64,000 nucleotides of DNA from Escherichia coli. Its GTDB lineage: Bacteria; Pseudomonadota; Gammaproteobacteria; Enterobacterales; Enterobacteriaceae. The stretch lies in the NCBI RefSeq assembly GCF_030013205.1, contig NZ_CP122648.1, one strand, 5' to 3'. The stretch's first letter is position 1. Every line of letters starts with the position of its first letter. The position numbers were made by a program. This document shows, piece after piece, positions 52,701 through 55,700 of the stretch.

Positions 52701-55700
52701 TCCATCTTCGACTCCTTCCGGTTTAAATGCGCGTGGAACAGTAATTTGATAATCCGGCTCCAGCCAGCCGCCGGGTATGATTTGCCGCTTTCCCGTACCT
52801 GTTTCTATACCGCTTTGATCAATATACTGAAAATAAGGGTGTCCATTACGCCGGGCAAGGTAAAGCATCACCCGGTTGGTTTTAACCGAATGACTGGCGC
52901 GAAGCAGTGCCTGCAATTTGCGTGGGCTGAGAAGATTCAACCCCTGAAACAGAGCATCGGCATGTTCGAACGAGATCAACGAAGGAACGCCGCAGGCGAT
53001 CTCATACGCGGCCAGTTCCGGAACACTGCCTGCTAACTGGCAGTCGCCAATTTTTAGTTCCGTAGTCAATGACGTTACATCTACGGTAAGCCCCGATGTA
53101 TACAGCGTGATAAATGTTGCAGATTGTTCGAAGGCAGCAAACCATCCCGGCAGCTTAACGTAAGCCGGAAGCGCGAGCCAGACCTGCGGCCTGCCCGGTT
53201 CGGTATAGTGCGCATGGCCCTGTAGCGCAAGGCTGGTTAGCCCCGCCACCCGAACAGGCTTTTCCCACTGTGTTTGCAGGCAGTAAACCGCGTCTACCCA
53301 ATCCGGCTCACGGCCCGTCCGGCAGTACACGCCGTGAGCGATGCGCCTGAGCCAGCCATTTTGAACATAGAGATAAGAAAGCTTACGATCTACGCCGTTG
53401 CGGGTAAGCCATGACTGGAGCAGCACCTGACCGGGTAGCGTATTTTGCATCAACCAGTTTAGATAGTTTGGCAAATGTCGCTCCTGAATAGACATTAGTA
53501 GAAATATTTAAACCAGTGTAGGTTCAGGGATACGCCACAGCAAGAAATAGTTTACTTATTCCTCATTTTGTCTACTTAAAATTGACATTGAGAAAAAAAT
53601 ACAAACTTACCTACATTCAGGCAAAGTGCGACAAATAGACTCGGTCGGTTTAAAGAGAACGTGTAACATAGATGCAAATCGAATAGACATTGTTGCCAGC
53701 CGTTCCAAGGTTGTGGGGCGCTGCATGGCCTGAGACGTGATAAATACAGGGAACACAATGAAATTCACTGAAGATACCCGAGTAAAAATCCCCGTCATCC
53801 TCCACCTGATACGGCTGGGCTACCACTACCTGTCCCTTAAAGAACAACGCTGGGACAAAGAAACCAATATCTTCCCTGACCTCTTCACCGCTGCGATTGG
53901 CAGAATAAATCCCGGACTTGTGCCAGACGACATCGGACGCCTGTTAAAAGACCTCACGCTGCTTCTCGACAACGATGATCTGGGCCGCGCCTTCTTCGAA
54001 AAACTCAGTGACCGTTCCGGTATCAAACTGATCGACTTTGATAACTTCAACAACAACAGTTTCCATGTCGTCACCGAACTGACCTGCGAAAACGGTGATG
54101 AAGAATTCCGCCCGGACATCACGCTGCTGATCAACGGCATGCCGCTAATCTTTATCGAAGTGAAAAAACCCAACAATCGGGAAGGCATCGTCGCAGAACG
54201 CAACCGCATCAACGAACGCTTTAAAAACCCCAAATTCAAACGCTTCGCCAACATCACCCAGTTCATGATCTTCTCCAATAACATGGAGTATGACGACAGC
54301 GACCCGGAGCCGATTCAAGGGGCATTCTACGCCAGCAGCTCTTACAGCAACCCGGTATTCAACTACTTCCGCGAAGAAGAACTCTTCAACCTGACCAACT
54401 TACTGAAACCGCTGTCAGAAGAAACCGAAATCGCCGTCCTGAAAGACAACAACCTGGAAGTGATCCGCACCAACCCGGAATTTCAGACCAACAAAGATCA
54501 CAACCGCCCGACAAACCGCCTCTGCACCGCGCTGTTGAGCCGGGATCGGCTGGCATTTATCCTGCGCTATGCGCTGGTGTATGTAGCCGAACCGGGCGGC
54601 ATCCAAAAACACATCATGCGCTACCCGCAGCTCTTCGCCACCAAAGCGATTGAGCGCAAACTGAACGTTGGCGTGAAAAAAGGCATTATCTGGCACACCC
54701 AGGGCAGTGGGAAAACCGCATTGGCATACTACAACGTGCGCTTCCTGACAGATTACTTCCAGAATCAGCAGGTGATCCCGAAATTCTACTTTATTGTCGA
54801 TCGCCTTGATCTGCTCCAGCAGGCGCAGCGTGAATTCACCGCCCGTGGCTTAATCGTTCACCTTATCGACTCCCGCGAAGCCTTCACCCGCGATATCAAA
54901 GCGACGCAGGCGCTGCACAACCACCACGGCAAAGCGGAAATCACCGTCGTCAACATCCAGAAATTCCGCGATGACCCGGATGTCGTCACCACCAAAGACT
55001 ACGACATCAACATCCAACGCGTGTACTTCCTCGATGAAGTCCACCGCAGCTACAACCCCAAAGGGAGCTTCCTGGCGAATTTAAGCCAGTCGGACACCAA
55101 CGCCATCAAAATTGGCCTGACCGGTACGCCTCTGCTGGGCACAGACTACAACTCCCGCGACCTCTTCGGCGACTACATCCACAAATACTACTACAACGCC
55201 TCCATTGCCGACGGCTACACGCTGCGCCTGATCCGTGAAGAGATCGCCACCAACTACCGGATGATCCTGCAACAGGCGCTAAAAGACGTAGAAGTCAGAA
55301 TGGGCGATGTGGATCGCAAAGACATCTACGCCCATCCCAGTTTCGTCAAACCGATGCTGAACTACATCGTCACCGACTTTGCCAAAAGCCGGGGCGCACT
55401 GAATGATGACACCATCGGCGGCATGGTGATTTGCGACAGCTCAGAACAGGCCAAGCAGATGTTTGAGATATTCAACACTGACTACGCCGAATCGCCCACC
55501 GCTGCCGATGACGTAGCCGAAGAAATGCCGGTATTACAGGCCGCAGAGCCTGCCGCCGTTTACCAGATCCACGCCAAAGAAACGCGGAAAATCAAACGCG
55601 CCGCCCTGATCCTGCACGACGTCGGCAGCAAGCAGGAGCGCAAAGAATGGGTGGATCAATTCAAAGCGGGCGAGATTGACCTGCTGTTCGTCTACAACAT

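What the first reader, a model, noticed from the sequence alone, without database searches (positions are those of the whole stretch)
53496..53757. Divergent control region between the AbiEi-like gene and hsdR carries repeated ATAGAC / GTCTAC motifs
The 262-bp AT-rich spacer contains several copies of a short motif in both orientations (TGTCTACTT at ~53570, TTGACATTG at ~53582, AAATAGACTC at ~53634, GAATAGACATTG at ~53681). AbiEi antitoxins are known to autorepress through inverted repeats in their promoter, so these could be the operator; they could equally act on hsdR.
Basis: inference. Interest (0 to 1): 0.35.

Follow-up and report, generated by a model that had tools for sequence, protein, structure and literature searches.

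The report
abiE toxin-antitoxin promoter and operator

Summary
The window is E. coli: a defence island next to tRNA-Thr/proA carrying abiEii-abiEi (minus strand) divergent from hsdRMS. The four listed motif copies are at the stated coordinates, but within this one sequence they are not clearly beyond chance (some 7-mer occurs three times in 12% of shuffles).

Comparison with 16 related loci shows a larger structure:
- There are four 23-nt units, GTTTa..TATT..N..TGTC.
- They form two 57-bp inverted pairs (23-11-23) at 53457-53513 and 53550-53606.
- The 36 bp between the pairs hold a conserved sigma-70 promoter for abiEi: -35 at 53543-53538, -10 at 53520-53515.
- The copies at 53634 and 53681 are not conserved.
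- abiEi starts at the TTG at 53474 (260 aa), not the ATG at 53495.

The same control region sits beside unrelated neighbour genes in other strains (a reverse transcriptase, dptFGH), so it belongs to abiE, not hsdR. AbiEi_3 homologues at 29-51% identity keep the 23-11-23 geometry. The layout resembles the Rv2827c and S. agalactiae AbiEi operators, which are also the only significant fold matches. AbiEi binding and repression are inferred, not shown.

The parts
51785..52705 (-). abiEii toxin gene (306 aa, DUF1814 nucleotidyltransferase). It overlaps abiEi by 14 nt.
   Evidence: Pfam AbiEii 6e-36; PADLOC AbiEii 4e-116; PGAP annotation of the identical record.
52692..53474 (-). abiEi antitoxin/repressor gene. 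It has a TTG start and encodes 260 aa: an N-terminal winged HTH (AbiEi_3_N) plus an AbiEi_3 C-terminal domain.
   Evidence: Pfam 1.7e-35 and 4.8e-29; PADLOC AbiEi 8.5e-79; TTG start and SD conserved in 17 of 17 sequences; 260-aa homologues; only significant fold matches are 1ZEL and 6Y8Q.
53457..53479 (+). Unit C' (GTTTAGATAGTTTGGCAAATGTC on the + strand). It is the promoter-distal arm of the proximal pair and covers the start codon and codons 2-6.
   Evidence: 27.5 bits with the orthologue-only matrix. Codons 4-6 are the only run of three or more invariant third bases in the gene.
53476..53494 (.). Proximal core palindrome O2, TGTC-N11-GACA. It encloses the Shine-Dalgarno AGGAG (53485-53481, minus strand).
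   Evidence: TGTC and GACA kept in 17 of 17 and 15 of 17 sequences, always 11 nt apart.
53491..53513 (-). Unit A (GTTTAAATATTTCTACTAATGTC on the minus strand). It spans about -5 to +18 of the predicted abiE transcript.
   Evidence: 27.4 bits; conserved in all 17 sequences.
53515..53520 (-). Predicted -10 hexamer TACACT. The TSS is inferred near 53508.
   Evidence: Hexamers with A at position 2 and T at position 6 in all aligned sequences. The homologous site is called independently as CATAAT or TATAAT, with 10 of 12 matches, in L011 and L015. The TSS is not mapped.
53538..53543 (-). Predicted -35 hexamer TTGCTG, 17 nt from the -10.
   Evidence: TTG is invariant in 17 of 17 sequences. The 36-bp gap between the pairs is exactly 6 + 6 + 17 + 6 + 1.
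53550..53572 (+). Unit B' (GTTTACTTATTCCTCATTTTGTC on the + strand). It is the promoter-proximal arm of the distal pair, at about -64 to -42.
   Evidence: 20.6 bits; conserved in 15 of 17 sequences.
53569..53587 (.). Distal core palindrome O1, TGTCTA-N7-TTGACA (TGTCGA-N7-TCGACA in most orthologues).
53584..53606 (-). Unit D (GTTTGTATTTTTTTCTCAATGTC on the minus strand). It is the outer arm of the distal pair, at about -98 to -76.
   Evidence: 20.3 bits; conserved in 15 of 17 sequences.
53641..53680 (.). Conserved block of unknown role. On the minus strand it reads TTTGCATCTATGTTACACG..TTAA..GACCGAG. It travels with abiE, not with hsdR.
   Evidence: Alignment. Present beside RT (L002) and dpt (L003) cargo. 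No promoter call and no Rfam match.
53633..53642 (+). It is not part of the conserved operator.
   Evidence: Orthologues read TACATTT or TATATTT here; below the 12-bit listing threshold with the unit matrix.
53681..53692 (+). It is a lineage-specific solitary duplicate of the unit-A tail.
   Evidence: Exact 11-nt repeat of 53486-53496. Absent from L002 and L003 and from other genera.
53758..56856 (+). hsdR (type I restriction subunit R, 1032 aa), the divergent neighbour. It is followed by hsdM (56850-58487) and hsdS.
   Evidence: Pfam HSDR_N, SWI2_SNF2 and ResIII; PGAP annotation.

Best explanation
Positions 53457-53606 are the promoter-operator of the abiEi-abiEii operon, a type IV toxin-antitoxin and abortive-infection system.

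A sigma-70 promoter (TTGCTG-N17-TACACT, minus strand) lies in a 36-bp gap between two 57-bp composite palindromes. Each palindrome is made of two 23-nt units, GTTTa..TATT..N..TGTC, placed tail to tail 11 bp apart.

By analogy with the two characterised AbiEi repressors, the winged-helix N-terminal domain of AbiEi binds one unit per monomer, four in all. Unit A lies across the transcription start (about -5 to +18). Units B' and D lie upstream of the -35. Unit C' lies over the SD-proximal leader and the first six codons. Occupancy would then shut off abiE transcription, which is negative autoregulation.

Shown here: the units, their geometry, their conservation and their linkage to abiE. Inferred: that AbiEi is the binder, the stoichiometry, the sign of regulation and the transcription start.
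For: 1. Pattern. GTTT-N15-TGTC-N11-GACA-N15-AAAC matches only 53457-53513 and 53550-53606 in the 64 kb; no shuffle gave a match.
2. Conservation. All 17 sequences keep the proximal pair: the window, three E. coli variants and 13 loci from other Enterobacterales with 81-91% AbiEi identity. Fifteen keep both pairs. The units are always 23 nt and the gaps 11 nt. The pairs are 36 bp apart in 13 of those 15.
3. Footprint. Information content is 2 bits at unit positions 1-4 and 20-23 and about 0 at positions 13-16. This is a footprint, not blanket conservation.
4. Independent matrix. A matrix built without the window ranks the four window units as the top four hits in 64 kb. Only one other hit reaches 12 bits.
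5. Promoter. The -35 TTG and the A at position 2 and T at position 6 of the -10 are kept throughout. The same site scores 10 of 12 in L011 and L015.
6. Coding overlap. Codons 4-6, under the head of unit C', have invariant third bases. This is the only such run in the gene, against 13% of degenerate codons overall.
7. Linkage. The region travels with abiE beside unrelated neighbours.
8. Distant homologues. AbiEi_3 loci at 29-51% identity keep 23-11-23 composites with GTTTA...TAAAC ends. Where the AbiEi protein differs most (29-44% identity), the inner palindrome also differs, as expected for a cognate regulator.
9. Protein. AbiEi_3_N plus AbiEi_3 domains. The N-terminal 70 residues are modelled at pLDDT 84-96. 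The only significant PDB fold matches are Rv2827c (1ZEL, 4e-7) and S. agalactiae AbiEi (6Y8Q, 5e-4).
10. Literature. Those two proteins bind 23-bp inverted repeats in their own promoters and repress them (PMC3985639, PMC7319586). A Serratia AbiEi_3/AbiEii pair is a functional TA, and its authors infer autoregulation (PMC7725324).
Against: - No binding, footprint, reporter or TSS data exist for this protein or subfamily.
- The window's own promoter matches the consensus at only 7 of 12 positions and was not called by the scan.
- There is no sequence-level similarity to the characterised AbiEi proteins. The fold match has low TM (about 0.3), and the C-terminal domain model is poor.
- The repeat sequences differ from those of S. 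agalactiae (TGTTGCTTTTA...).
- Two loci (L005, L006) lack the distal pair, and L017 has a 32-bp inter-pair gap that would spoil the promoter spacer.
- The 23-nt unit boundary was partly guided by prior knowledge. A classical dimer on the 19-bp core palindromes, plus separate GTTTAA elements, fits the same data.
Confidence: 0.78

Rival explanations
1. The operator is the set of short ATAGAC/GTCTAC words scattered over the whole spacer, including 53634 and 53681. It may control hsdR as much as abiE, as a bidirectional control region.
For: The named words are enriched against shuffles when taken as given (0-2 of 2000). abiE and hsdR are also adjacent and divergent in Brenneria alni (L011), and an hsdR fragment sits there in Atlantibacter (L007).
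Against: After allowing for motif choice the enrichment is unremarkable (12% of shuffles). The copies at 53634 and 53681 are not conserved and do not score as units. Orthologues read TCGAC, not TAGAC, in the distal pair. The identical control region flanks RT or dpt genes instead of hsdR, and its proximal part flanks a DUF4747 gene. hsdR elsewhere shares only 28 nt of its upstream sequence with the window. The nearest unit ends 152 bp before the hsdR ATG.
Confidence: 0.07
2. The operator is two classical 19-bp palindromes (TGTCGA-N7-TCGACA; O1 at 53569-53587 and O2 at 53476-53494, centres 93 bp apart). Each binds an AbiEi dimer, possibly with looping around the promoter. The GTTTAA elements would be a separate feature: a second site type, or sequence flanking the promoter.
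For: In most orthologues the distal core is a perfect 6 + 7 + 6 palindrome. Both cores share the same TGTC-N11-GACA spacing. A 93-bp centre-to-centre distance is close to nine helical turns.
Against: The GTTT heads are as invariant as the cores and sit at a fixed 15-nt distance from them in every unit. In distant homologues the heads persist while the cores change, still at 23-11-23. The characterised relatives bind one monomer per 23-bp repeat (PMC7319586).
Confidence: 0.12
3. The proximal repeat acts at the RNA level. AUGUC...GACAU would form a leader hairpin that holds the Shine-Dalgarno sequence in its loop and controls abiEi translation.
For: The minimum-free-energy fold of the leader pairs these five bases.
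Against: The fold is no better than shuffles (z = -0.35; 64 of 200 shuffles fold at least as well). The same geometry recurs at the distal site, upstream of the -35, where it is not transcribed from this promoter. There is no Rfam match.
Confidence: 0.02
4. Chance similarity in AT-rich intergenic DNA, with no function.
For: The single-sequence k-mer test is not significant after correction.
Against: The geometry and end sequences are conserved across more than a dozen genera and down to 29% protein identity, while the interior positions vary freely. The full pattern was not seen in any shuffle.
Confidence: 0.01

Closest known systems
Rv2827c (MenA-type COG5340 antitoxin) operator of M. tuberculosis rv2827c-rv2826c (Beck et al. 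2020, PMC7319586)
   Same: Both have two pairs of 23-bp inverted repeats upstream of or overlapping the antitoxin promoter, four sites in all. The gap within a pair is about one helical turn (13 bp there, 11 bp here). The repressor is a two-domain wHTH antitoxin of a DUF1814 toxin. Rv2827c is the best fold match of the window protein (1ZEL, E 4e-7).
   Different: In M. tuberculosis the pairs are 4 bp apart and lie over the promoter, within -1 to -131 of the start codon. Here they are 36 bp apart with the core promoter between them, and the last unit runs 18 nt into the coding sequence. The repeat sequences are unrelated. The proteins share no detectable sequence similarity and belong to different Pfam families.
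S. agalactiae AbiEi operator IR1/IR2 (Dy et al. 2014, PMC3985639; Hampton et al. 2018, as cited in PMC7319586)
   Same: Both have 23-bp inverted repeats whose outer ends are the best conserved part. One repeat overlaps the promoter and the other lies after +1. The operon is a bicistronic abiEi-abiEii with a short leader (26 nt there, about 34 nt predicted here). Negative autoregulation by the antitoxin alone is demonstrated there and inferred here.
   Different: S. agalactiae has a single pair separated by 3 bp (49 bp in all); here there are two pairs of 57 bp. The repeat sequence is different (TGTTGCTTTTA...). The antitoxin belongs to DUF4095/AbiEi_4-type families, not AbiEi_3. The fold match is weaker (6Y8Q, E 5e-4).
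Serratia sp. ATCC 39006 AbiE-2 (AbiE-A2 is an AbiEi_3 antitoxin; Hampton et al. 2020, PMC7725324)
   Same: Same Pfam subfamily (AbiEi_3) and same order of bacteria. It was shown to be a functional toxin-antitoxin pair. Chromosomal abiE-A2 rose on toxin induction, which the authors read as an effect on autoregulation.
   Different: No operator or promoter was described there. I did not retrieve that locus, so whether it has the same composites is untested.

Membership tests
AbiE type IV toxin-antitoxin / abortive infection operon | An AbiEi-family (COG5340) antitoxin gene directly followed by a DUF1814/AbiEii nucleotidyltransferase gene on the same strand. | tested here: met
   Pfam AbiEi_3_N + AbiEi_3 and AbiEii; PADLOC AbiEi 8.5e-79 and AbiEii 3.9e-116; 14-nt overlap of the two ORFs.
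AbiE type IV toxin-antitoxin / abortive infection operon | Toxicity of AbiEii, neutralisation by AbiEi, and phage resistance. | not testable with these tools
   Shown only for relatives: S. agalactiae (PMC3985639) and the Serratia AbiEi_3 pair (PMC7725324).
AbiEi-type autorepressor (as Rv2827c and S. agalactiae AbiEi) | Two-domain fold: an N-terminal winged HTH plus a C-terminal antitoxicity domain. | tested here: met
   AlphaFold model with N-terminal pLDDT of 84-96. Foldseek against the PDB gives exactly two matches at E <= 1e-3: 1ZEL and 6Y8Q. Caveats: TM is about 0.3 and the C-terminal domain model is weak.
AbiEi-type autorepressor (as Rv2827c and S. agalactiae AbiEi) | Detectable sequence homology to the characterised proteins. 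| tested here: not met
   phmmer against all PDB sequences finds neither protein, even at E <= 10. The relation is visible only at the fold and Pfam-annotation level.
AbiEi-type operator | Inverted repeats about 23 bp long, in pairs, at the antitoxin's own promoter. | tested here: met
   Four 23-nt units in two 23-11-23 pairs bracket the conserved -35 and -10.
AbiEi-type operator | Repeats conserved upstream of orthologous abiE loci and changing with the regulator. | tested here: met
   All 17 sequences from Enterobacterales keep the proximal pair and 15 keep both. Loci at 29-51% identity keep the geometry; those at 29-44% identity have different inner palindromes.
AbiEi-type operator | Direct binding by AbiEi and repression of the promoter. 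| not testable with these tools
   Needs EMSA or footprinting and reporter fusions.
Control element of the type I R-M gene hsdR | The element is linked to hsdR across genomes and lies at its promoter. | tested here: not met
   The element occurs without hsdR (L002, L003, L005). hsdR occurs without the element (L004). There is no unit within 150 bp of the hsdR ATG. The only promoter-like site on the hsdR strand in the window (TTGAGA-N18-TACATT, 53588-53617, 9 of 12 matches) is no more than shuffles give (1 found against a mean of 0.8) and is not conserved; no site on the neighbour-gene strand was called at that position in the three orthologous spacers scanned.

The most novel reading that the evidence does not exclude
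The whole AbiEi_3 (DUF2893) subfamily may use a two-part operator code. A 57-bp composite (23-11-23) would have outer ends that are near-universal (GTTTA...TAAAC, kept from E. coli to Pseudomonas at 29% protein identity). Its inner palindrome would be lineage-specific (TGTCGA/TCGACA, TACGGCG/CGCCGTA, TGCGGCGAT/ATCGCCG). Promoters usually carry two composites, at variable distances (4, 13, 17 or 36 bp). In one clade the last unit is written into codons 1-6 of the repressor's own gene. If true, each monomer reads two DNA elements about 1.5 helical turns apart. The inner element would then insulate paralogous AbiE systems from one another, so operator specificity could be predicted from sequence.
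Probability: 0.45. Interest if true: 0.5.

Novelty: new member of a known kind. Interest (0 to 1): 0.35.

Why it matters
AbiE is among the commonest toxin-antitoxin and abortive-infection defence systems. This allele is in about 860 of 5426 complete E. coli genomes, including ST131 strain EC958. Autoregulation sets how much toxin a cell carries and is thought to be part of how such systems fire.

Only two AbiEi operators have been characterised, in Streptococcus and Mycobacterium. The map given here is base-precise and ready to test for the enterobacterial AbiEi_3 subfamily. It covers the four sites, the promoter and the corrected start codon. It suggests the 23-bp inverted-repeat scheme is general.

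It also shows that the control region belongs to abiE rather than to the neighbouring restriction system. That matters for anyone cloning or deleting either module from this island. None of this overturns current understanding.

Tried and rejected
1. Single-sequence repeat statistics. Enrichment of the named words looked strong, but it vanished once I asked how often any 7-mer reaches three copies. I therefore did not use it as evidence.
2. Promoter scan of the window. It found only a + strand TTGAGA-N18-TACATT. This site is not conserved in the RT and dpt variants, so I rejected it as the main feature. The abiE promoter in the window is too weak a consensus match (7 of 12) to be called, and I identified it by conservation instead.
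3. Leader RNA hairpin around the SD. Not better than shuffles.
4. Rfam scan of 53350-53900. Nothing of note; one rydB-like match far below threshold.
5. A third composite or orphan unit in the conserved block at 53641-53680. The register is off by 4 nt and the tail differs (my own reading), and the matrix gives no hit there.
6. An outward promoter for the neighbour gene in that block (-10-like TAACAT at 53664-53669). I found no acceptable -35, and the scans of three orthologous spacers called no promoter at that block. Left open.
7. Sequence search of PDB chains with AbiEi. No relevant hit; the relation appeared only by fold.
8. The search for related loci with the 19-sequence alignment failed because no stretch was conserved enough. 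I repeated it with 10 closer sequences.
9. The supplement of Dy et al. 2014 (Fig. S8, inverted repeats of other abiE loci) is not held. I could not check whether any AbiEi_3 promoter was shown there.
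Full report
**Context.** The window is Escherichia coli chromosome. The 2.5 kb around the finding is 100% identical to strain K_EC180 and other porcine ETEC. The region is a small island between ykgR/LysR genes and tRNA-Thr(CGU)/proA, and it ends in integrase and ash remnants.

The genes are:
- abiEii, 51785-52705 (-)
- abiEi, 52692-53474 (-)
- hsdR, 53758-56856 (+)
- hsdM, 56850-58487 (+)
- hsdS, from 58493 as an ORF (+); PGAP calls a slightly earlier start

Pfam and PADLOC confirm the AbiEi_3_N + AbiEi_3 antitoxin, the AbiEii/DUF1814 toxin and the type I R-M subunits.

**The observation.** Three points need correcting.

First, GTCTAC is not the complement of ATAGAC. The common core is TAGAC/GTCTA, with four copies.

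Second, a fifth copy was missed. GAATAGACATT at 53486-53496 is an exact duplicate of 53681-53691.

Third, that ATG is not the start:
- PGAP and almost all homologues give 260 aa from the TTG at 53474.
- The TTG and its SD are conserved in 17 of 17 sequences.
- The upstream ATG is missing or followed by an in-frame TGA in several orthologues.

The spacer is therefore 283 bp.

Statistically, the named words are rare in shuffles (0-2 of 2000). But some 7-mer reaches three copies in 12% of shuffles. The repetition in one sequence proves little.

**Who owns the spacer.** Within E. coli, 864 of 5426 genomes carry the region.
- In 548 records the match covers at least 80% of the query at 95-100% identity; every listed one is hsdR-linked.
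- In 317 records identity is 80-90%; in the listed ones only the abiE-proximal part matches.
- In that second group the neighbour is a 1069-aa reverse transcriptase (L002, homology to about 53701) or dptFGH with HTH genes (L003, to about 53743).
- A further variant has a DUF4747 gene as neighbour (L005, about 87% identity, homology to about 53513).
- Conversely, a 97%-identical hsdR elsewhere (L004) shares only 28 nt upstream of its ATG.

The control region is therefore part of the abiE module. hsdR is one of several interchangeable neighbours.

**What is conserved.** I fetched 13 orthologous loci with 81-91% AbiEi identity. They come from Mixta, Atlantibacter, Affinibrenneria, Pectobacterium, Brenneria, Trabulsiella, Symbiopectobacterium, Serratia, Lelliottia and Kluyvera. 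I aligned their upstream regions with the window and the E. coli variants.

Read in the abiEi direction, the conserved features are:
- unit D, GTTT-N15-TGTC
- an 11-nt gap
- unit B', GACA-N15-AAAC
- 36 bp
- unit A, GTTT-N15-TGTC
- an 11-nt gap containing the SD
- unit C', GACA-N15-AAAC, which runs through the start codon to codon 6

The window coordinates are D 53606-53584, B' 53572-53550, A 53513-53491 and C' 53479-53457.

All 17 sequences have the proximal pair and 15 have both. Every unit is 23 nt and every gap is 11 nt. The inter-pair distance is 36 bp in 13 of 15, 37 bp in one and 32 bp in one.

Several tests back this up:
- Information content is 2 bits at unit positions 1-4 and 20-23, intermediate in the A/T-rich positions 5-12, and about zero at 13-16. 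That is a footprint rather than general conservation.
- The full pattern matches only these two places in the 64 kb, with none in 100 shuffles. It matches the homologous places in the loci.
- A matrix built only from orthologues ranks the four window units first to fourth, at 27.5, 27.4, 20.6 and 20.3 bits. Only one other hit reaches 12 bits, at 2973-2995.
- Under unit C', codons 4-6 (TAT-nTA-AAC) have invariant third bases. This is the only run of three such codons in the gene, where 13% of degenerate codons are invariant. It points to selection on the DNA itself.

**The promoter.** The 36-bp gap reads 6 nt, TTGnnn, 17 nt, a hexamer with A at position 2 and T at position 6, then 1 nt. The TTG is invariant, and A2 and T6 are kept in every aligned sequence.

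In L011 and L015 the scan calls this site independently: TTGCCA-17-CATAAT and TTGTGA-17-TATAAT, each with 10 of 12 matches. The window's version, TTGCTG-17-TACACT (53543-53538 and 53520-53515), matches only 7 of 12 and was not called.

With a start near 53508 (inferred, not mapped), the units would sit as follows:
- unit A at -5 to +18
- unit C' at +30 to +52
- unit B' at -64 to -42
- unit D at -98 to -76

The copies at 53570 and 53582 are the two inner half-sites of the distal pair. The window has TGTCTA-N7-TTGACA, and most orthologues have TGTCGA-N7-TCGACA. The missed copy at 53486-53496 is the tail of unit A.

The copies at 53634 and 53681 lie outside the units. The first reads TACATTT or TATATTT in orthologues. 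The second is absent from L002 and L003 and from the other genera. Neither scores with the matrix.

**Breadth.** More distant AbiEi_3 loci keep the same 57-bp geometry and GTTTA...TAAAC ends.
- Pseudomonas abyssi and Halopseudomonas (29% identity) have two composites 13 bp apart, with the inner palindrome TACGGCG-N5-CGCCGTA.
- L025 (33%) has two composites 17 bp apart, with inner GCGGCGAT/ATCGCCG.
- L023 (44%) has two composites 4 bp apart, the second ending at +18.
- Photorhabdus (L021, 51%) and L026 (48%) each have one composite ending at +18.

The ends are family-wide. The inner palindrome keeps TGTC in Photorhabdus and differs in the loci at 29-44% identity. That is what a cognate regulator's site should do.

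**Link to known systems.** S. agalactiae AbiEi binds two 23-bp inverted repeats 3 bp apart and represses PabiE. The transcription start there is 26 nt before the ATG (PMC3985639). Rv2827c binds two pairs of 23-bp repeats, 13 bp apart within a pair and 4 bp apart between pairs, and it also autoregulates (PMC7319586).

The window protein has no sequence match to any PDB chain. Its AlphaFold model has a confident N-terminal domain. The model finds exactly two significant structures: Rv2827c (E 4e-7) and S. agalactiae AbiEi (E 5e-4).

A Serratia AbiEi_3/AbiEii pair is a proven TA, and its authors infer autoregulation, but no operator was described (PMC7725324). My literature searches found no description of an AbiEi_3 operator. 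This is absence from the searchable library only.

**Mechanism and rivals.** The best-supported reading is negative autoregulation. AbiEi would occupy four sites that bracket and overlie its promoter. Unit A would occlude the start site, and the other units would add cooperativity or DNA wrapping.

A variant reading cannot be separated by sequence alone: dimers on the two 19-bp cores, 93 bp apart, with looping. It fits less well with the fixed head-to-tail distance and with heads that persist while the cores change.

An RNA hairpin around the SD is not supported (z = -0.35). Chance is excluded by the conservation.

Control of hsdR is not supported (see 'Who owns the spacer'), but it is not formally excluded. 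abiE and hsdR are also neighbours in Brenneria alni. I could not locate the hsdR promoter.

**Unexplained.** A block at about 53641-53680 is conserved in most loci regardless of the neighbour. On the minus strand it reads TTTGCATCTATGTTACACG...TTAA...GACCGAG. It gave no convincing promoter, repeat or RNA-family match.

**Verdict.** The feature is real and its kind is known. It is a new, well-resolved member: the AbiEi_3-type abiE promoter-operator. Its motif definition, gene start and hsdR alternative were not.

Noticed in passing
window 53641-53680 (and aligned positions in L002, L003, L007, L008, L011, L015-L017): A conserved block lies upstream of the operator. On the minus strand it reads TTTGCATCTATGTTACACG..TTAA..GACCGAG-TAcATTT. 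It travels with abiE whatever the neighbouring gene. It has no convincing promoter, repeat-unit or Rfam match. It could be an outward promoter for the variable neighbour gene or a host-factor site.
   Followed up: partly
window 51785-60992; L002, L003, L005: The island at tRNA-Thr/proA keeps abiEii-abiEi at one end. The gene set next to it differs between E. coli strains: type I hsdRMS here, a 1069-aa reverse transcriptase, dptFGH with HTH genes, or a DUF4747 gene. The breakpoints fall at about 53513, 53701 and 53743. It looks like a defence-gene swapping hotspot with abiE as the fixed flank.
   Followed up: partly
L005 4280-4295; L006 3764-3779: Two loci lack the distal operator pair: E. coli TB06052 and Mixta theicola. 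In the replaced upstream DNA both carry a near-consensus LexA-type box (TACTGTATAAATATACAGCA and its relative). This hints that the neighbouring gene, or abiE itself, is SOS-controlled there.
   Followed up: no
window 53681-53691 vs 53486-53496: There is an exact 11-nt direct repeat, GAATAGACATT. The upstream copy is specific to the hsdR-linked E. coli lineage (absent from L002 and L003 and from other genera). It is a solitary duplicate of the unit-A tail with no partner.
   Followed up: yes
L008 and L016 (Affinibrenneria salicis scaffold 1, 519-528 kb and 547-556 kb): Two copies of the abiE locus have identical upstream regions. They lie about 20 kb apart in inverted orientation on one scaffold, each next to the first bases of an hsdR gene. 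This may be a large inverted duplication or the two ends of an element.
   Followed up: no
L017 3930-3961 (Lelliottia sp. WAP21): The gap between the two operator pairs is 32 bp instead of 36 bp. This leaves a 13-nt spacer between the -35 and -10, so the promoter may be crippled in that strain.
   Followed up: no
window 53582-53587: A window-lineage substitution in the distal half-site (TCGACA to TTGACA on the + strand) creates a perfect -35 consensus facing hsdR. No usable -10 follows at 16-18 nt.
   Followed up: yes
window 2973-2995 (-): This is the only other sequence in the 64 kb scoring at least 12 bits with the operator-unit matrix: TTTTAAATATTGTTTTTATTGTC, 19.5 bits. It is solitary and lacks the GTTT head, so it is probably chance.
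   Followed up: no
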